Assembly (NCBI GenBank): GCA_009914755.4
Contig: CP068257.2
Span: 22,528,001 to 22,592,000 of the forward strand
Reading direction: 5' to 3'
DNA: 64,000 nucleotides
From: the human T2T-CHM13v2.0 reference genome, Homo sapiens
The notes under the pieces are model-generated. The model had not been told where the DNA came from. It saw only the letters and a list, made by a program, of their open reading frames with translations, and ran no database searches. Shown here one piece after another: positions 9,745-39,442 of the stretch (positions are counted from its first letter, which is position 1; each line of letters begins with the position of its first letter). The position numbers and the translations under genes are program-made.

Positions 9745-10748
9745 GTAGATTCTGGATATTAGCCCTTTGTCAGATGAGTAGATTGCAAAAATTTTCTCCC
9801 ATTCTGTAGGTTGCCTGTTCACTCTGACGGTAGTTTCTTTTGCTGTGCAGAAGCTCTTTAGTTTAATTAGATCAAACAAATTTACAAGAAAAAAACAAAC
9901 AACCCCATCAACAAGTGGGCGAAGGATATGAACAGACAGGTCTCAAAAGAAGACATTTATCCAGCCAACAGACACATGAAAAAATGCTCATCATCACTGG
10001 CCATCAGAGAAATGCAACTCAAAACCACAATGAGATACCATCTCACACCAGTTAGAATGGCGATCATTTAAGTCAGGAAACAACAGGTGCTGGAGAGGAT
10101 GTGGAGAAATAGGAACACTTTTACACTGGTGGTGGGACGGTAAACTAGTTCAACCATTGTGGAAGTCAGTGTGGAGATTCCTCAGGGATCTAGAACTAGA
10201 AATACCATTTGACCCAGCCATCCCATTACTGGGTATATACCCAAAGGATTATAAAACATGCTGCTATAAAGACACATGCACACGTATGTTTATTGCGGCA
10301 CTATTCACAATAGCAAAGACTTGGAACCAACCCAAATGTCCAACAATGACAGACTGGACTAAGAAAATGTGGCACAAATACACCATGGAATACTATGCAG
10401 CCATAAAAATTGATGAGTTCATGTCCTTTACAGAGACATGGATGAAGCTGGAAACCATCATTCTCAGCAAACTATCGCAAGGACAAAAAACCAAACACCG
10501 CATGTTCTCACTCATAGGTGGGAATTGAACAATGAGAACACATGGACACAGGAAGGGGAACATCACACACCGGGGACTGTTGTGGGGTGGGGGGAGGGGG
10601 GAGGGATAGCATTAGGAGATATACCTAATGTAATGATGAGTTAATGGGTGCAGCACACCAACATGGCACATGTATACATATGTAACAAACCTGCACATTG
10701 TGCACATGTACCCTAGAACCTAAAGCATAATAAAAAAAAAATTTAAAA
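9745..10748 (+). mobile_element. L1PA-type LINE-1 3' end (about 1 kb) with 5' inverted segment (twin-priming structure) and poly-A
   Basis: Positions 9874-10748 match the sense-strand L1 ORF2 C-terminus plus 3'UTR, ending ...ccctagaacctaaagcataataaaaaaaaa. Positions 9745-9873 are antisense L1 (gattctggatattagccctttgtcagatgagtagattgcaaaaattttctcccattctgtaggttgcc...ctttagtttaattagatc). In L1 coordinates this piece lies directly upstream of the sense piece, with a deletion of about 16 nt at the junction. A 12-bp TSD, aatcaacaagta, sits at 9735-9746 and about 10751-10762. Confidence 0.9.
9874..10528 (+). pseudogene. L1 ORF2 C-terminal remnant (reverse transcriptase/C-domain tail), non-functional fragment
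   Basis: The track ORF 10157-10528 translates to ...LELEIPFDPAIPLLGIYPKDYK...MWHKYTMEYYAAIKIDEFMSFTETWMKLETIILSKLSQGQKTKHRMFSLIGGN*. This is the recognisable L1 ORF2p C-terminus. It is 5'-truncated, so it is a fragment only. Confidence 0.85.
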
Positions 10749-11330: not shown

Positions 11331-11921
11331 TTTTTTTTTTTATTTCAATTTTGTTTTTTATTATTTAAGTTCTGGGGTACATGTGCAGAACATGCAGGTT
11401 TGTTACATACGTATACACCTGCCATGGTGGTTTGCTGCACCCATCAACCCATCATCTACATTAGGTATTTCTCCTAATGCTATCCCTACCCAGCCCACCA
11501 CCCCCCCACCCCCCTACCCTCTACCACCCGACAGGCCCCAGTGTGTGATGTTCCCCTCCCTGTGTCCATGTGTTCTCATAGTTCAACTCCGACTTATGAG
11601 TGAAAACATGCGGTGTTTGTTTTTCTGTTCTTGTGTTAGCTTGCTGAGAATGATGGTAGAACTAGAATTGCCATTTGATCCAGCAATCCTATTACTGGGT
11701 ATCTACCCAAAGGATTATAGATCATTCTACTATAAAGACATATGCACATGTGTGTTTATTGTGGCACTGTTCACCATAGCAAAGACTTGGAGCCAACTCA
11801 AATGCCCATCAATGATAGACTGGATAAAGAAAATGTGGCACATATACACCATGCAATACTGTGCAGCCATAAAAAAGGATGAGTTCATGCCTTTTGCAGG
11901 GACGTGAATGAAACTGGAAGC
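11331..11921 (-). mobile_element. L1PA-type LINE-1 3' end on minus strand with twin-priming inversion
   Basis: Positions 11331-11657 are poly-T plus antisense L1 3'UTR (ttatttaagttctggggtacatgtgcagaacatgcaggtttgttacatacgtatacacctgccatggtgg...ttgctgagaatgatggt). Positions 11658-11921 are sense L1 ORF2 end (agaactagaattgccatttgatccagcaatcctattactgggtatctacccaaaggattat...gatgagttcatgccttttgcagggacgtgaatgaaactggaagc). The two blocks are contiguous in L1 coordinates (..ggaagc | catcattctcagcaa..). Read on the minus strand this is 5'-inverted piece-sense 3' end-polyA. The flanking TSD is about 10 bp, ctatttgaac / ctgtttgaac. The track ORF 11383-11907 spans the junction and is an artefact. Confidence 0.85.
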
Positions 11922-26626: not shown

Positions 26627-26658
26627 TTCTTCCCTCCCTCTCTCTCTCTCTCTCTTTT

Positions 26659-26710
<52 letters not shown>

Positions 26711-26779
26711 ACTTTCTTTCTTTCTTACTTTCTTCCTTCCTTCCCTTCCTTCCTTCCTTCCTCCCTCCCTCCCTCTCTC

Positions 26780-26817
<38 letters not shown>

Positions 26818-26840
26818 CTCTTTCTTTATTCTTTCTTTCA
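26627..26840. repeat. (TTTC)n/(TCCC)n/(CT)n microsatellite (expanded A-tail of adjacent minus-strand Alu)
   Basis: ttcttccctccctctctctctctctctctttttctttctttctttc... runs for about 210 bp and directly abuts the 3' end of the minus-strand Alu at 26841. The ORF at 26615-26851 (KERKKERKK...) is a repeat artefact. Confidence 0.9.
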
Positions 26841-27124
26841 CACAGTTTCACTCTGTCACCCAGGTTAGAGTGCAGTGGAGCAATCCCAGCTCACTACATC
26901 CTCTGCCTCCCAGTCCCAGGTTCAAGCGATTCTCATGTTTCAGCCTCCCAAGTAGCCTGGATTACAGGCGCCCACCACCACGCCTGGCTAATTTTTGTAT
27001 TATTAGTAGAGATGGGATTTCACCATGTTTACCAGGCTGGTCTCGAACTCCCGACCTCAATTGATTCGCTGGCTTCAGCCTCCCAAAGTTCTGGGATTGC
27101 AGGTGTGAGCCACCATGTCTGGCC
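26841..27124 (-). mobile_element. Alu SINE, minus orientation
   Basis: The copy starts cacacagtttcactctgtcacccaggttagagtgcagtggagcaatc, runs through ..ggattacaggcgcccaccaccacgcctggctaatttttgtatt.., and ends ..gggattgcaggtgtgagccaccatgtctggcc. Confidence 0.92.
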
Positions 27125-32286: not shown

Positions 32287-32678
<392 letters not shown>

Positions 32679-33343
32679 CTTCTTGTGTAAATTTTTAATT
32701 CAAGATTTTTTCACATTATATTGTGTTTGAAACTAAAACTATCAAAATACTCACTAAAGTGACATTTTAAAATAATAAAATTAGGGTAGATTTTAGTTTT
32801 CTAAAATGTCTATATTACTCTACTAATTTTGTAGTAAAAATAAAATTTATGAATTTAAATTCTGTATATCTTAGATTCTTATTTGACCTGAAAGGATAGC
32901 AAGGAATTAAAGAGGACTAAAATGTCAGACTGCCTCTCTAGAGAGAGTATGTCTTAAATGAGTTCATACACTGAATTGATATTAAAAATACAAAGAGAAG
33001 AAATAGAAAAAGGCTAATGACCGGCCACAGAGAACTTGCTATGAGATGATGAGCTTGGCTTTTTCAGCCTCACGTATAACTTTCTATTGCAAAGTTACTA
33101 AATGTACAGATATGACAAATATCAGAGAGAATTAATGTAATCTAGTCAGCTTAGTGTCACATGATATTAAAGACAGTATCAAAAACAGACATGAACCGAA
33201 AATTCATGCTTGTGTCAGAGGGCAAAACCAACCAACCAACAAACAAAAATAAATCTGTCCTTCACGGGTTTCTAAGAAGTTGGTAATTAAGGAAGTAATT
33301 TATTGGGTAAATTTTATTTCTTTCAAAAACAGATGTTTCTATC

Positions 33344-33982
33344 TATGATGGTTAATTTCATGTGTCCATTTGACTGAACCACAGCACCCAGACATTTGGT
33401 CAAACATTATTCTGAATTTTCTTTGTGGGAGTTTTTGAATGAAGGATACATTTAAATCAGTGGACTTTTGAGTAGAGCAGATTGCCCTTCCTATGTGAGT
33501 GGGCTTTCTTCCTTCAGTTGAAAGTCCAAATAGAACCAAAAGGCAGACCTCCTCTGAGCATGAGAGAATTAGGTTAACATATATACATATATATATATAT
33601 ACACGCACACACACATACACACACACACATATATATACACACACATATATACATATATATACATGTGTATATATATACACATATGTGTATGTGTATATAT
33701 ATGTGTGTGTATATATATGTGTGTATATATAAACATACACATATATACACATATATATATACACACTATATATGTATATATACACATATGTATATATATT
33801 TGTATATATGTATATATAACCATATGTATATATATTTGTGTATATGTGTGTATATAAATATATATGTGTGTGTATATATATATTCTCCAGAGAAACAGAA
33901 CCCATAGCATATATATACACATATATGTGTATATATATATGTGTGTGTGTATGTATATTCTCCAGAGAAACAGAACCCATAG

Positions 33983-34022
<40 letters not shown>

Positions 34023-34086
34023 ATATATATTTTATATATATATATGCGCTATGGGTTCTGTTTCTCTGGAGAACCCTAACTAATAC
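33344..34086 (+). mobile_element. MaLR-type solo LTR (TGTGATGG...CTAATACA family) whose internal (TA)n microsatellite has expanded to about 500 bp
   Basis: The 5' part, 33344-33575, reads tatgatggttaatttcatgtgtccatttgactgaacc..cccagacatttggtcaaacattattctg..agtagagcagattgcccttcctatgtgagtgggc..aatagaaccaaaaggcagacc. The 3' terminus, 34045-34086, reads gcgctatgggttctgtttctctggagaaccctaactaataca. The normally short internal (TA)n block is replaced by 33577-34047. Confidence 0.7.
33577..34047. repeat. Hyper-expanded compound (TA)n/(CA)n/(TG)n microsatellite with embedded inverted copies of the LTR terminus
   Basis: Interleaved atatat/acacac/tgtgtg runs. ttctccagagaaacagaacccatagc occurs at 33884-33909 and 33958-33983, 74 bp apart, and is the exact reverse complement of 34048-34073. 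(CA)17-18 lies at 33991-34020. All 200-aa-class ORFs at 33339-34095 (CVCVC.../YIYIY...) are low-complexity artefacts. Confidence 0.9.
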
Positions 34087-36290
34087 AGTTCTCACAGCTT
34101 CCTCACTTCTTATTTTCAGGGCTAAAATCTATGCTCGATCTCTCATTCCATTTATCTAAGACTGTAAAGGGTAAAATGCTATGAATTTTTGCACAGTCCA
34201 GTTAAATTAAAAAAAGACGAAAACAAAAATGATAGTCCATAAACAACGTTATGTTAAGAGTAGTGTTTTCACAGTCATATTTTCATTTTTTAGATAACAT
34301 ATTTTTGGATCTAACAGATTTATGTTTTAATTATTTTGAAATTACATCTATTCTAAAATACACATTCATTCCCAACTTTAATGTATTTTGCATTTTTTAA
34401 GTTGTTTGGTTGAAATTTTGGAAACATAATCCAAAACTAAGATGTTTAATATAATAAAATTCCCAAATGAGAAATGTCAGTTCAAATGCCAAATTAAAAA
34501 TCTTTTAAAGTTGTATTTTTCTGTTCATATAGATTTTTAAAAAATTTTCCAAACTGTCCCTTTGTATTTTCAAATATGTGTTATCTGTAATAGTCTTTCA
34601 ACAAATATTCATCACCCAACAATCGTGTGTATGGCTCTGGGAATATAGATGGGAAAATGGAATAAAAAATAAATTTCTACTTAGACCTTAATATTATTTA
34701 TTAAGAACAACGGGCTCTGGTGTCAAGCAAGCACGAGCTCGAATAACATGTGTTCGTTATATGGCTGCGGGCCTGGTGCTTCATCTAATAAACTTCAATT
34801 TCCACATTGCAAACCAGAGATGATAATGATATATACATACAGAGCCTCTAGGAAAATTAATAACGACAATGTGCTTAGTGTGCTCAGCCTGGCATCTGGC
34901 AAAGTATGCCTGCATCAGTGTTAACAATTATAAGTATGTTTCCTGTCTCTAAAGCTGGTGCTCATTGCACCATCCAATAAATGACTCGATTTTATCTACT
35001 ACCTGGCTTTGTCCATGCTGTTGTCATTTCTACTTTGTATAAATATCTATTCTGGAGATTACTGAGTTTTTAACAGCTTGTCAAAATCAATATTAAAATA
35101 ATAGCTTCCATATTTTATGAAGATTAGGGATAAATGGAAGACAATCTACTTTATCCTCAGTTAGACAGGATTTTACTTAAGTCCCTCAAAGAAAAAAATC
35201 AATTTTAATCTTTATCTCTGTAGTGTCTCCTGCTAATATTTTATCAACTCTTAGAAATCCCTACCAGATCTTGTCTACATTTATATGTTACTCATCACTC
35301 TTCATTCTGCATGATTGGGCTTAGTGGAGGCCACCGGGTTATCATCAGTGACAAAGGAGCTGTTATGTATTATATAATACAATTTGTCTTCTCAATATTG
35401 TCACACCCAGAATATTCCTTTTTTCATTGCATTTCTTTATCACTAATTTTAAAACGAATTCCATTGCTTTCTCCAGAACTCTCTTTACATTTCCCAAAGA
35501 AGCACTGATTTTGATTAGGAAAACAAGTCAAGGCACAACTGAATACAACATAAGAATTACCTCATGGTTTCTCAGTGCCTGTCTCCTATTTAGAAATTCA
35601 GCACTGTGTTTGCTTTCTCCAGAGCTGTATCACTCATGGCTAGATTCTTATCTACTATGACACTTAGCTATTCTTTGGCCATATTTGCATTTCTCATATT
35701 TTTGCATTGAAAATTTATGTTTCTCTTCAAACATACTACCCTCATCTTATCTTGATTGCATTTCTTCCATGTATTTTTTCATTTTCCAAGTTCACGTTAA
35801 AGGTGGTGATTTTATCTTCTGCATTTGTAGCCACCTTCTTGTCCTCTCTTGTTTTTTAATGTTATCTTTGGCGTTAATGAGTACAGAGAATATTCCATCA
35901 CCCTGTTTTCATAATGTATTCTGTTAAATAATTCATGGATTAACATTAACCACACATTTCTACTAAGAACTTTATTAATGCAATGGTTATTTCAATTAAC
36001 TTTAATTGACTAAACTGAGCATGAATCCTAAGCTCTTGGTTTTGACATCCTTCCAGTGATGATTACTTTGCATTAACTCTCCACTTACTAAAAAATCTGT
36101 GTTTAATTATACACCCTAATTTTCAGCACTGTCTGTTACTTGATTCTAACGTGATTTGAATGTTATCTTCCTTTATTTTTAGAAAGTATAAATATTATGT
36201 ATAAGAATGAAGACACAACTGTGGTTGGCTGGTGGGGAAATGGAGTAAAAACGGTAGGAGCAGCAACAGAAACATGTCACATTACTTATT

Positions 36291-37959: not shown

Positions 37960-39316
37960 TGTAGGAACTTTTTTGTCTTTCCCCCCTTCTGTGACCGGAA
38001 TTGGTGGGTTCTTGGTCTCTCTGACTTCACCAATGAAGCCGCAGACCCTCGCGTGAGTGTTACAGTTCTTAAGGCGGCACGTCTGGAGATGTTCTTCCTG
38101 CCAGTGGGTTTATGGTCTCGCTGGCCTCAGGAGTGAAGCTGCACACCTTCTTATAAAGTCAGCGTGGACCCAAAGAGCAAGCATCAGCAAGATTTATTGC
38201 AAAGAGGAAAAGAACAAACCCTCCACGATACAGAAGGGAACCTGAGCCAGTTGCCTTTGCTGGCTCAGGCAGCCTGCTTTTATTCCCTTATCTGACCCCA
38301 CCCACATCCTGCTGATTGGTCCATTTTACAGAGAGCTGATTGGCTCATTTTACAGAGAGCTGAGTGGTCCGTTTTGACAGGGTGCTGATTGGTGCATTTA
38401 GGGACCTTGAGCTAGACACAAAAGTTCTTCAAGTCCCCACTAGATTAGCTAGACACAGAGCACTGATAGGTGCGTGTATAAACCTTGAGGTAGACACAGG
38501 GTGCTGATTGGTACATTTACAATCCTTTAGCTAGACACAAAAGTTCTCCAAGTCCCCACTAGATTAGCTAGATACAGAGTGCTGATTGGTGCATCCACAA
38601 ACCCCGAGCTAGACACAGAGTGCTGATTGGTGCATATACAATCCTCTAGCTAGACATGAAAGTTCTCCAAGTCCCCACCCTACTCAGGAGCCCAGCTGGC
38701 TTCTTCCCCTAGTGGATCTTCCGCCGGTCCATGGGCGGAGCTGCCCGCCAGTCCTGCACTGCAGCGCCGGCAGTCCTTAGCCCTTGGGCGGTGGAAGGGA
38801 CCAGGCCCCGCGGAGCAGGGGAGGCTTGGGCCGCGAGGGAGCCCACGGCGGGGTTGGGGGAGGGCTCGGGCATGGGGGGCTGCAGGTCCCGAGCCCTGCC
38901 CCACAGGAAGGCGGCTGAGCCTCGGAGAGAATTTCAGCACGACGCGGGAGGACTGGCAGTGCTGGAGGACACGGCCCACCCTCCGCAGCTGCTGGCCCGG
39001 GTGCTAAGTCCCCTCACTGCGCAGGGCCAGCGGTGCAAGCCGGCCGCTTGCAGTGCGGGACCCGCTGAGCCCGCGCCCACCCGGAACTCGCGCTGTCCCG
39101 CCAGCGCAGCGCGCAGCCCGGGTTCCCACCCGCGCCTGTCCCTCTACACCTCCCCGCAAGCGAGGGAGCCGGCCCCAGCCTCGCCAGCCCAGAGAGGGGC
39201 CCCACAGCTCAGTGGCGGGCTGAAGGCCTCCTCGAGCATGGCCAGAGTGGACACCGAGGCCGAGGAGACGCGGAGAGCCAGCGAGGGCTGCTATTGTCAC
39301 CTCTCATTTCCATCAG
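37960..39316 (+). mobile_element. LTR12-family (HERV9) solo LTR, about 1.36 kb, probably 3'-truncated
   Basis: It starts tgtaggaacttttttgtctttccccccttctgtgaccggaattggtgggttcttggtctctctgacttcaccaatgaagccgcagaccctcgcgtgagtgttacagttcttaagg, with a second gtggg..tctcgctggcctcaggagtgaagctgcacacc block. The unit gcaagatttattgcaaagag is followed by a CTGATTGGT tandem-repeat array. A GC-rich segment then begins ..agcccagctggcttc..ctgcaggtcccgagccctgcccc..gccggcc..cctccgcagctgctggcccgggtgctaag. All of this matches the LTR12 architecture I know. The ORFs at 38680-39351 on both strands are GC-rich LTR artefacts. Confidence 0.85.
38311..38679 (+). promoter_or_regulatory. LTR12 U3 tandem-repeat enhancer block with about 8 inverted CCAAT (ATTGG) motifs
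   Basis: The motif ctgattggtccatttt / ctgattggctcatttt / ctgagtggtccgtttt / ctgattggtgcattta..agctagacac..agttcttcaagtccccac is repeated with a period of about 40-80 bp. CTGATTGG is the reverse complement of the CCAAT box. In LTR12 elements this array is the known NF-Y-bound promoter/enhancer. Function of this particular copy is an inference. Confidence 0.5.
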
Positions 39317-39442
39317 GTAAGGCCGTAGCGTTTCCACCTTTTGTCATGTGAGGATGTAGCAGGAAGGTCCTCAACAGATACCAAATGCTAGTGCCTTGGT
39401 TTTAGACTGCTCAGCCTCTAAAACTACAAGAAGTAAATTTAA

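What the first reader, a model, noticed from the sequence alone, without database searches (positions are those of the whole stretch)
33344..34086. MaLR LTR with a 500-bp expanded microsatellite carrying two inverted copies of the LTR's own 3' terminus (perfect 26-bp hairpin arms)
The LTR's small internal (TA)n block has grown into about 470 bp of interleaved (TA)/(CA)/(TG). Inside it, ttctccagagaaacagaacccatagc occurs twice, 74 bp apart (33884, 33958), in the opposite orientation to the native terminus gctatgggttctgtttctctggagaa (34048-34073). The last inverted copy and the native end form a perfect 26-bp inverted repeat across a 64-bp (CA)n/(TA)n spacer. This points to template-switch or fold-back replication within the microsatellite and then tandem duplication of the 74-bp unit. 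AT-rich palindromes of this kind are known to be length-unstable and cruciform-prone.
Basis: seen in the sequence. Interest (0 to 1): 0.55.

Follow-up and report, generated by a model that had tools for sequence, protein, structure and literature searches.

The report
Inverted LTR-end copies inside a microsatellite
An ancient retrovirus-like LTR in a primate genome carries a 470-bp dinucleotide repeat. Into that repeat, 26 bases of the LTR's own end were copied backwards and then duplicated, which is a real but ordinary scar of DNA copying errors and not a fragile palindrome.

Summary
TTCTCCAGAGAAACAGAACCCATAGC occurs at 33883-33908 and 33958-33983. The spacing is 75 bp, not 74. It is the exact reverse complement of the native LTR terminus at 34048-34073, and 64 nt separate the nearer copy from that terminus.

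I recovered 109 distinct relatives of this MaLR (MLT1-type) LTR end from mammalian contamination in metagenomes. They show that both inverted copies share two substitutions private to this LTR: G at -6 (0/107 relatives) and G at -1 (2/107). The copies were therefore made from this terminus long after the LTR inserted. The LTR is about 20% diverged from its family, while the three 26-mers are identical. No relative carries such an arrangement.

The inner end of each copy runs into self-complementary (TA)n. This fits hairpin-primed (fold-back, template-switch or snap-back) synthesis followed by a 75-bp tandem duplication.

- **LTR interior.** The LTR also lost about 130-250 bp of its interior.
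- **Cruciform analogy.** The analogy with AT-rich palindromes fails. The arms are 26-33 bp at 46% GC, the spacer is an asymmetric 48-64 nt, and the longest pure (TA) run is 7 units.

I could not obtain orthologues or population alleles. This is a new member of a known kind, and interest is low.

The parts
33344..33570 (+). 5' part of a solo MaLR (MLT1-type) LTR. It starts TATGATGGTTAATTT (family: TGTGATGGTTAATTT). Homology to relatives ends at ...GAGCATGAGAGAATT.
   Evidence: blastn against 118 family loci gives 19 hits at 67-74% identity over up to 237 nt, plus a few short ones at 77-89%. The window copy is 79.5% identical to a rough majority consensus.
33571..33578 (+). 8 nt (AGGTTAAC) of unassigned origin between the LTR 5' part and the repeat block. 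This is where about 130-250 bp of LTR interior is missing.
   Evidence: In the alignment with 11 relatives, the window lacks ...CTGGGTCTCCAGCCTGC...CCATAATCATGTGAGCCAATTCCTTATAATAAATC.
33579..33882 (.). Compound, heavily interrupted (TA)/(CA)/(TG) microsatellite, left part. It contains no further copy of the terminus.
   Evidence: TRF and the repeat finder. The best local alignment of the 26-mer here scores 11, against a null mean of 10.1, p = 0.31.
33883..33908 (-). Inverted copy 1 of the LTR terminus segment, 26 nt and exact.
33909..33957 (.). 49-nt (TA)/(CA)/(TG) stretch between the two inverted copies. It comprises the end of duplication unit 1 and the start of unit 2.
33958..33983 (-). 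Inverted copy 2 of the LTR terminus segment, 26 nt and exact. It forms the left arm of the tighter hairpin.
33858..33996 (.). 75-bp tandem duplication, 1.9 copies. Each unit holds one inverted copy plus its microsatellite flanks.
   Evidence: TRF reports period 75, 95% matches, score 257. At offset 75, 35 of 38 flank positions match, and both copies have identical boundaries.
33984..34047 (.). 64-nt asymmetric spacer: ATATAT(AC)15ATAATATATATTTTATATATATATATGC. Its outer 7 + 9 nt can extend the stem around a GC bulge.
34048..34073 (+). Native LTR terminus segment GCTATGGGTTCTGTTTCTCTGGAGAA, the donor of the inverted copies. It carries two private substitutions, G at -6 and G at -1 relative to GGTTCTG.
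   Evidence: Family profile: C 80/107 and G 0/107 at -6; T 99/107 and G 2/107 at -1.
34074..34087 (+). Last 14 nt of the LTR, CCCTAACTAATACA. This stretch is not included in the inverted copies.
   Evidence: One mismatch to CTGGAGAACCCTGACTAATACA.

Best explanation
This is a neutral mutational scar, not a functional element.

An ancient solo MaLR (MLT1-type) LTR has a simple-repeat slot just 5' of its conserved terminus. In this copy the slot became a long compound (TA)/(CA)/(TG) microsatellite, and the LTR interior was lost.

Much later, a DNA strand that had just copied the terminus and run into the self-complementary (TA)n tract folded back, or switched to the opposite strand. The (TA)n primed synthesis, which re-copied the terminus in reverse-complement orientation as far as ...GGAGAA. 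The strand then rejoined the (TA)n tract with 0-1 nt of microhomology. This is a short template-switch event of type 1-4-3-2. The product is the same whether it arose at a stalled fork or at a resected double-strand break (snap-back synthesis). The result was [inverted terminus]-(TA)n-[native terminus].

The inverted copy and its flanks were then duplicated in tandem as a 75-bp unit, by slippage or unequal exchange between the flanking dinucleotide tracts. Later microsatellite changes made the spacer asymmetric: (AC)15 expanded, and AT changed to GC next to the native end.

**Shown:** the exact copies, their local origin, their youth relative to the LTR, and the identical boundaries of the two copies.
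**Inferred:** the order of events and the enzymology.
For: 1. There are exact 26-nt reverse-complement copies at 33883 and 33958 of 34048-34073, with none expected by chance.
2. Both copies carry the two substitutions private to this LTR's terminus: G at -6 (0/107 relatives) and G at -1 (2/107). The donor is therefore this LTR after it had diverged.
3. The LTR is about 20% from its family consensus (JC 0.24). That predicts about 10 differences between two 26-mers as old as the LTR, and 0 are seen.
4. Read in native orientation, the 6 nt beyond each copy are ATATAT, which equals the family consensus. The native end now has ATATGC. Homology therefore originally ran into (TA)n, the only place where a strand can prime on itself. 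The DNA fold gives a 33-bp stem with a GC bulge, -29.4 kcal/mol, z = -14.
5. Both copies start and end at the same nucleotides. Their flanks match at the odd offset of 75 at 35/38 positions, and TRF gives 95% over 1.9 units. This points to one copying event followed by a duplication.
6. None of 109 distinct relatives has an inverted terminus nearby; 85 of them have at least 200 nt upstream. The arrangement is therefore locus-specific and not a family feature.
7. The slot is a microsatellite nursery. 23 of 97 relatives have a perfect tandem run of 12 nt or more there, with varied units. Two porpoise STR markers lie in the same slot (PMC12427282).
8. The kind of event is established. Type 1-4-3-2 creates an inverted repeat and makes up 31% of human-chimp events (PMC5453318). 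The median copied length is 12 nt and the maximum 128, 65% of events lengthen the sequence, and events are enriched in AT-rich DNA (PMC7954356).
Against: - No outgroup or second haplotype could be obtained, so the pre-event state was never observed.
- The outer junction has only 0-1 nt of microhomology, which is weak for a polymerase return step.
- The present spacer is not symmetric, because (AC)15 has no (GT)15 partner. A pure fold-back therefore needs later expansion.
- Identity of the three 26-mers could in principle be maintained by gene conversion rather than youth.
- The flank match at offset 75 is only slightly better than at offsets 73 and 77 (32-33 of 38), because the flanks are low-complexity.
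- The name MLT1 rests on my memory of the Repbase consensus, not on a Dfam or RepeatMasker run.
Confidence: 0.8

Rival explanations
1. The product is the same but the context is specifically double-strand-break repair. A break in the (TA)n tract was resected, and the 3' tail ending in (TA)n snapped back on itself. Pol theta-type synthesis copied the terminus, and the end was joined to the other side with minimal microhomology (SD-MMEJ / TMEJ templated insertion). This is a sub-variant of the best explanation, and its confidence is conditional on that explanation.
For: The outer junction TATATA|TTCTCC has only 0-1 nt of microhomology, which is typical of end joining. The inner edge lies in self-complementary (TA)n, which suits snap-back priming. 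Snap-back templated extension by Pol theta and SD-MMEJ at structure-forming sequences are documented (PMC4912351, PMC5728401, PMC2943611; titles and abstracts only).
Against: The sequence shows nothing that distinguishes repair from replication. To my knowledge, a 26-33 nt templated tract is at the long end of reported TMEJ insertions. There is no accompanying deletion signature that can be recognised inside a microsatellite.
Confidence: 0.35
2. Two independent template-switch events each copied the terminus into the microsatellite, rather than one event followed by a 75-bp tandem duplication.
For: The flanks are low-complexity, so their similarity at offset 75 (35/38) is only a little better than at offsets 73 and 77. 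The last 11 nt of a strict 75-bp unit do not match.
Against: Both copies have exactly the same outer and inner boundaries and the same first 7 nt after the copy. TRF scores the pair as a 1.9-copy tandem repeat at 95% identity. Two events sharing both breakpoints to the nucleotide is improbable.
Confidence: 0.06
3. Assembly or sequencing artefact: a chimeric or fold-back read, or a misassembly, placed inverted sequence inside a hard-to-assemble microsatellite.
For: Long dinucleotide repeats are error-prone to assemble. No independent copy of the locus could be retrieved.
Against: The two units have diverged from each other in their microsatellite flanks, with 3 mismatches and (AC)2 against (AC)15. 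The native side has changed AT to GC since the copy was made. This is a history of successive mutations that an artefact would not produce.
Confidence: 0.05
4. The inverted 26-mers are remnants of one or two other MLT1 LTRs that inserted in the opposite orientation.
For: MaLR LTRs are abundant. The 20-mer GGTTCTGTTTCTCTGGAGAA is conserved in many copies.
Against: The copies share G at -6 (0/107 relatives) and G at -1 (2/107) with the adjacent native end. They lack the last 14 nt of the LTR and everything upstream. They are identical to each other and to the native end, although the LTR is about 20% diverged.
Confidence: 0.01
5. The hairpin is maintained because it does something, for example as a transcribed long hairpin giving small RNAs or as a protein-binding cruciform.
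For: The stem is perfect at 26 bp (33 bp with a bulge), with a strong fold (z = -14). Template switching is known to create RNA hairpins and de novo miRNAs (PMC8794818, PMC10710096).
Against: A 48-64 nt loop is unlike a pre-miRNA. There is no Rfam family match in the window. The locus lies in AT-rich, CpG-poor sequence. No conservation data are available. Perfect identity is explained by youth.
Confidence: 0.03

Closest known systems
Short template-switch mutations (four-point model, type 1-4-3-2 / 3-2-1-4; Loytynoja & Goldman 2017, Walker et al. 2021)
   Same: A nearby segment is copied in reverse complement, which creates a perfect inverted repeat and a net insertion. The context is AT-rich. 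The resulting hairpin is stable.
   Different: The copied tract is 26-33 nt, against a median of 12 and a maximum of 128. It lies inside a microsatellite, a class of sequence that those scans deliberately excluded ('complex and unique regions'). It was subsequently duplicated in tandem. The ancestral state has not been observed here.
Snap-back / synthesis-dependent MMEJ templated insertions (Pol theta-mediated end joining)
   Same: Synthesis is hairpin-primed from a self-complementary stretch near the end. The insertion is an inverted copy of flanking sequence. The final junction has minimal microhomology.
   Different: There is no evidence of a break. The insert is long for this class. This sequence cannot distinguish it from replicative template switching.
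Palindromic AT-rich repeats (PATRR11/17/22)
   Same: The region is AT-rich and has an inverted-repeat component.
   Different: PATRRs are 190-600 bp near-perfect palindromes with central symmetry, and a 9-nt central spacer greatly reduces extrusion (PMC1851657). Here the arms are 26-33 bp and 46% GC, with an asymmetric 48-64 nt spacer.
Structure-forming (AT)n repeats such as Flex1 of FRA16D, and expanded TA repeats in MSI tumours
   Same: TA dinucleotide repeats are present.
   Different: Fragility needs uninterrupted tracts of about 23 units or more, and (AT)14 is inert (PMC12972899). The longest pure TA run here is 7 units.
Transposon-born microsatellites (the simple-repeat slot of MLT1-type LTRs)
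   Same: The repeat sits in the slot that carries (AC)n, (ATCC)n, (CT)n, (ATCT)n or (AT)n in 23 of 97 relatives. Two porpoise STR markers lie in the same slot.
   Different: At 469 bp it is unusually long. It is coupled to loss of the LTR interior and contains non-repeat inserts.

Membership tests
MaLR (MLT1-type) LTR | Sequence homology of the 5' part (TGTGATGGTTAATTT... onward) to other family copies | tested here: met
   19 of 118 retrieved loci align to 33340-33578, mostly at 67-74% identity, each upstream of its own terminus and in the same orientation.
MaLR (MLT1-type) LTR | Conserved 3' terminus ...CCTATTGGTTCTGTTTCTCTGGAGAACCCTGACTAATACA | tested here: met
   34042-34087 matches the family profile except at -8, -7, -6, -1 and one G>A in the tail.
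MaLR (MLT1-type) LTR | Complete LTR interior | tested here: not met
   About 130-250 bp present in relatives is absent. This is a truncated copy, which does not argue against membership.
MaLR (MLT1-type) LTR | Target-site duplication flanking the LTR | tested here: inconclusive
   The flanks are ...GATGTTTCTATC| and |GTTCTCACAGC. Only a loose GTT(T)CT resemblance is seen, offset by 3 nt. This is expected for an old element.
MaLR (MLT1-type) LTR | Assignment to a named Repbase/Dfam subfamily | not testable with these tools
   No Dfam or RepeatMasker is available. The name MLT1 is from memory. Repbase lists MLT1 subfamilies under MaLR (PMC5753468).
Short template-switch mutation, type 1-4-3-2 | A tract of 14 nt or more identical to the reverse complement of nearby sequence | tested here: met
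   26 nt exact, 64 and 139 nt from the donor. The 14-nt threshold comes from PMC5453318.
Short template-switch mutation, type 1-4-3-2 | The donor is the adjacent sequence itself | tested here: met
   The private substitutions at -6 and -1 are shared.
Short template-switch mutation, type 1-4-3-2 | An ancestral or sister sequence lacks the copy | not testable with these tools
   No primate genome or population data are reachable. Look-ups and protein searches found nothing.
PATRR-like cruciform-prone palindrome | Long (about 200-600 bp) near-perfect AT-rich arms | tested here: not met
   The arms are 26 nt exact, or 33 with a bulge, and the 26-mer is 46% GC.
PATRR-like cruciform-prone palindrome | Central symmetry with no or minimal spacer | tested here: not met
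   The spacer is 64 nt (a 48-nt loop after stem extension) and is dominated by non-self-complementary (AC)15.
Structure-forming (AT)n repeat | Uninterrupted (AT)n of about 23 units or more | tested here: not met
   The longest perfect TA run is 7 units. The longest run of any unit is (AC)15.

The most novel reading that the evidence does not exclude
The template-switch-born 75-bp unit is an active, hairpin-driven instability hotspot. Its copy number (1, 2, 3 or more) and the spacer length would vary among haplotypes well beyond ordinary dinucleotide slippage. That would show that a fold-back event inside a microsatellite can seed a new minisatellite or VNTR. Alternatively, the transcribed 33-bp hairpin may feed a small-RNA pathway.
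Probability: 0.1. Interest if true: 0.4.

Novelty: new member of a known kind. Interest (0 to 1): 0.17.

Why it matters
It is a clean, well-anchored example of reverse-complement (template-switch or snap-back) copying inside a microsatellite. Genome-wide scans for such events exclude this sequence class. It also shows how such an event can be amplified into a 75-bp higher-order unit.

The private substitutions give an internal clock and donor assignment without any outgroup.

Beyond that it is an ordinary neutral scar in AT-rich non-coding DNA.

Tried and rejected
**Attempts to retrieve the same locus from other assemblies**
- Exact-product look-ups of ORFs spanning or flanking the region found nothing on record.
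- A protein search with the 109-aa ORF covering all three 26-mers returned only three weak, irrelevant hits.
- The viral-contig scan gave 0 hits.
- The GTDB scan gave 1 hit in a Clostridiales MAG. By my own arithmetic a 20-mer in 596 Gb is expected to match by chance about once.
- The metagenome scan gave 118 mammalian-contaminant LTR ends, but none is this locus.

**Other negative searches**
- Rfam found no family in the window.
- A third, degenerate inverted copy in 33579-33882 (for example AACCATATG at 33818) is not significant, p = 0.31.

**Ideas considered and dropped**
- Large-scale mirror symmetry of the microsatellite, with CA-rich left and TG-rich right arms at 70-79% complementarity. 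I do not treat this as evidence of inversion. (TA)n is self-complementary, and TA>CA and TA>TG are both single transitions (inference).
- The outer boundary coincides with the end of the mini-palindrome TTCTC-TG-GAGAA. A 2-nt loop is sterically too tight, so I treat this as coincidence.
- Deletion of the LTR interior between two AATT(C) motifs. The 8 nt AGGTTAAC do not align convincingly, so this is left open.
- A target-site duplication was inconclusive.
- A literature search for the sequence itself returned only porpoise STR markers in the same LTR slot.

Full report
**What is in the sequence.** The window is primate DNA. Four Alu 5' heads are present against 0 expected. The region is AT-rich at 30-36% GC.

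At 33344 a MaLR-type LTR begins (TATGATGGTTAATTT...). Its recognisable 5' part ends at 33570. Eight unassigned bases follow, and then a 469-bp block (33579-34047) of interrupted (TA)/(CA)/(TG) repeats. The LTR resumes at 34048 with GCTATGGGTTCTGTTTCTCTGGAGAACCCTAACTAATACA and ends at 34087.

Inside the repeat block, TTCTCCAGAGAAACAGAACCCATAGC occurs at 33883-33908 and 33958-33983. It is the exact reverse complement of 34048-34073. The 64-nt spacer is correct.

A 21-mer search allowing three mismatches finds only these three sites in 64 kb, with 0.00 expected. They are the only complex perfect inverted repeats of 20 nt or more within 1 kb anywhere in the window.

**Bringing in relatives.** No tool here holds primate genomes. 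I therefore scanned the metagenome collection for the conserved 20-mer GGTTCTGTTTCTCTGGAGAA. This recovered 118 stretches (109 distinct) that are plainly mammalian contamination carrying the same LTR end.

Their profile just upstream of the 20-mer is ATA(T/C)ATCCTATT, and the tail is CCCTGACTAATACA. The window's native end reads ATATGCGCTATG.
- G at -6 occurs in 0 of 107 relatives.
- G at -1 occurs in 2 of 107 relatives.
- Both fall inside the 26-mer, and both are present in both inverted copies.

The copies were therefore made from this very terminus after it had acquired private mutations. They are not leftovers of other LTRs.

None of the 109 relatives has an inverted terminus nearby, apart from one weak 4-mismatch match 386 nt away in a single locus seen three times. 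85 of the relatives have at least 200 nt of upstream sequence. The arrangement is therefore specific to this locus.

**Age.** The LTR is 79.5% identical to a rough majority consensus (JC distance 0.24). If the copies were as old as the LTR, two 26-mers would differ at about 10 positions, and they differ at none. Zero differences in a 26-nt pair bounds per-lineage divergence since copying at about 5.5% (P = 0.057). This places the event within primate evolution and probably much more recently, unless conversion keeps the copies identical.

**How far the LTR is altered.** Alignment with 11 relatives shows that the window copy lacks the whole interior between ...GAGAATT and the simple-repeat slot. 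That interior is about 130-250 bp and includes ...CTGGGTCTCCAGCCTGC...CCATAATCATGTGAGCCAATTCCTTATAATAAATC.

The microsatellite sits exactly where relatives carry a short and very variable simple repeat. 23 of 97 have a perfect tandem run of 12 nt or more there, with units AC, ATCC, CT, ATCT, AT and others. Two tetranucleotide STR markers of the finless porpoise lie in the same slot of the same LTR family (PMC12427282).

**Anatomy of the copying event.** Read in native orientation, the six bases beyond each inverted copy are ATATAT. That equals the family consensus at -12 to -7. The native end now reads ATATGC there. The simplest reading has two parts.
- Homology between copy and donor originally continued into the (TA)n tract.
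- The native side later changed AT to GC, either by a GC slippage or by two transitions.

Folding 33958-34073 as single-stranded DNA gives a 33-bp stem with a 2-nt GC bulge and a 48-nt loop. The energy is -29.4 kcal/mol, against -4.2 +/- 1.8 for shuffles, z = -14.

The inner edge of the copy therefore lies in the one kind of sequence on which a strand can prime itself, since (TA)n is its own reverse complement. The outer edge is sharp: TATATA|TTCTCC, where the donor would read GGG|TTCTCC. That leaves 0-1 nt of microhomology.

This is what hairpin-primed copying predicts. A strand that has copied the terminus and entered (TA)n folds back or switches strands. It re-copies the terminus up to GGAGAA and rejoins the (TA)n.

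[quoted passage not shown] Great-ape events have a median copied length of 12 nt (maximum 128). 65% lengthen the sequence, and they are enriched in AT-rich DNA (PMC7954356).

The same product would arise from snap-back synthesis on a resected break (SD-MMEJ / Pol theta). The sequence cannot separate these two contexts.

**Two copies.** TRF reports a period-75 repeat with 1.9 copies and 95% matches at 33858-33996. At offset 75 the flanks match at 35 of 38 positions. Both copies share identical boundaries and the same 7 nt after the copy.

Because the flanks are low-complexity, offsets 73 and 77 score nearly as well. The argument therefore rests mainly on the identical breakpoints. One copying event followed by a 75-bp tandem duplication is far more likely than two independent events.

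After the duplication, (AC)2 in unit 1 corresponds to (AC)15 in the spacer. This explains the present asymmetry of the spacer. A search for a third, degenerate copy was negative.

**Is it a cruciform-prone AT-rich palindrome?** No.
- The arms are 26-33 bp and 46% GC.
- The spacer is 48-64 nt and mostly (AC)15, which cannot pair with itself.
- The longest uninterrupted TA run in the whole block is 7 units.

The literature sets much higher thresholds.
- Cruciform extrusion of PATRRs depends on length and central symmetry. A 9-nt spacer greatly reduces extrusion of the roughly 600-bp PATRR22, and the 190-bp PATRR17 barely extrudes (PMC1851657).
- Alu inverted repeats stall eukaryotic forks with a 12-bp spacer but not with a 52-bp spacer (PMC7999016).
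- (AT)14 behaves like a control, and only 23 or more units are structure-forming (PMC12972899).

A hairpin in single-stranded DNA is plausible. A PATRR-like hazard is not. The block is surely length-polymorphic, as any long dinucleotide repeat is, but that does not depend on the inverted copies.

**What could not be done.** I could not obtain an orthologue or a second haplotype. The pre-event state, the lineage in which the event happened, and any polymorphism are therefore untested. An assembly artefact is unlikely, because the units and the donor have accumulated separate later mutations, but it is not formally excluded. The subfamily name (MLT1) is from memory. Repbase lists MLT1 under MaLR (PMC5753468).

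**Verdict.** This is a real, locus-specific reverse-complement copy of 26-33 nt of the LTR's own end. It was primed in (TA)n and then duplicated as a 75-bp unit. It is a neutral scar of a known mutational process in an unusual setting. It is a new member of a known kind, and interest is low (0.17).

Noticed in passing
window 10454-10739 and 11349-11657: An inverted pair about 290 nt long, 83-86% complementary, with arms about 610 nt apart. By eye the sequence looks like L1 3'-end sequence (for example AGGGATAGCATTAGGAGA and TATGTAACAAACCTGCA). It is probably two L1 3' ends in opposite orientation.
   Followed up: partly
window 38750-39250: A 500-bp block with 73.5% GC and CpG observed/expected 0.64, set in an otherwise 30-36% GC window. 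It meets the usual CpG-island criteria and lies about 4.7 kb downstream of the LTR. Long GC-rich ORFs on both strands (38680-39351) are probably spurious. No gene was identified.
   Followed up: partly
window 26640-26850: A long (CTTT)n/(CCTT)n/(CT)n compound polypyrimidine microsatellite. It reads as a [12 protein letters not shown] ORF on the minus strand. It is adjacent to what looks like an Alu end (CACAGTTTCACTCTGTCACC).
   Followed up: no
window 942, 7449, 16042, 32661: Alu 5' heads with 2-3 mismatches to GGCCGGGCGCGGTGGCTCA. They mark the window as primate. The one at 32661 lies about 680 bp upstream of the LTR.
   Followed up: no
loci L002-L119 (metagenome contigs, e.g. ERZ1033861, OUNP01, OJNM01, Ga0126362): Public metagenome assemblies contain many low-coverage mammalian contigs. 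Some loci recur in several assemblies, for example L008/L058/L089/L100 and L017/L021/L067/L107. This makes the collection usable as an ad hoc sample of mammalian repeat families.
   Followed up: partly
window 34062-34073: The outer boundary of the copied segment coincides with the end of a mini-palindrome, TTCTC-TG-GAGAA. The 2-nt loop is too tight to fold, so this is probably coincidence.
   Followed up: no
window 33571-33578: Eight bases (AGGTTAAC, containing the palindrome GTTAAC) lie between the LTR 5' part and the microsatellite and align to nothing in the family. They mark the junction of the interior deletion, whose mechanism is unresolved.
   Followed up: partly
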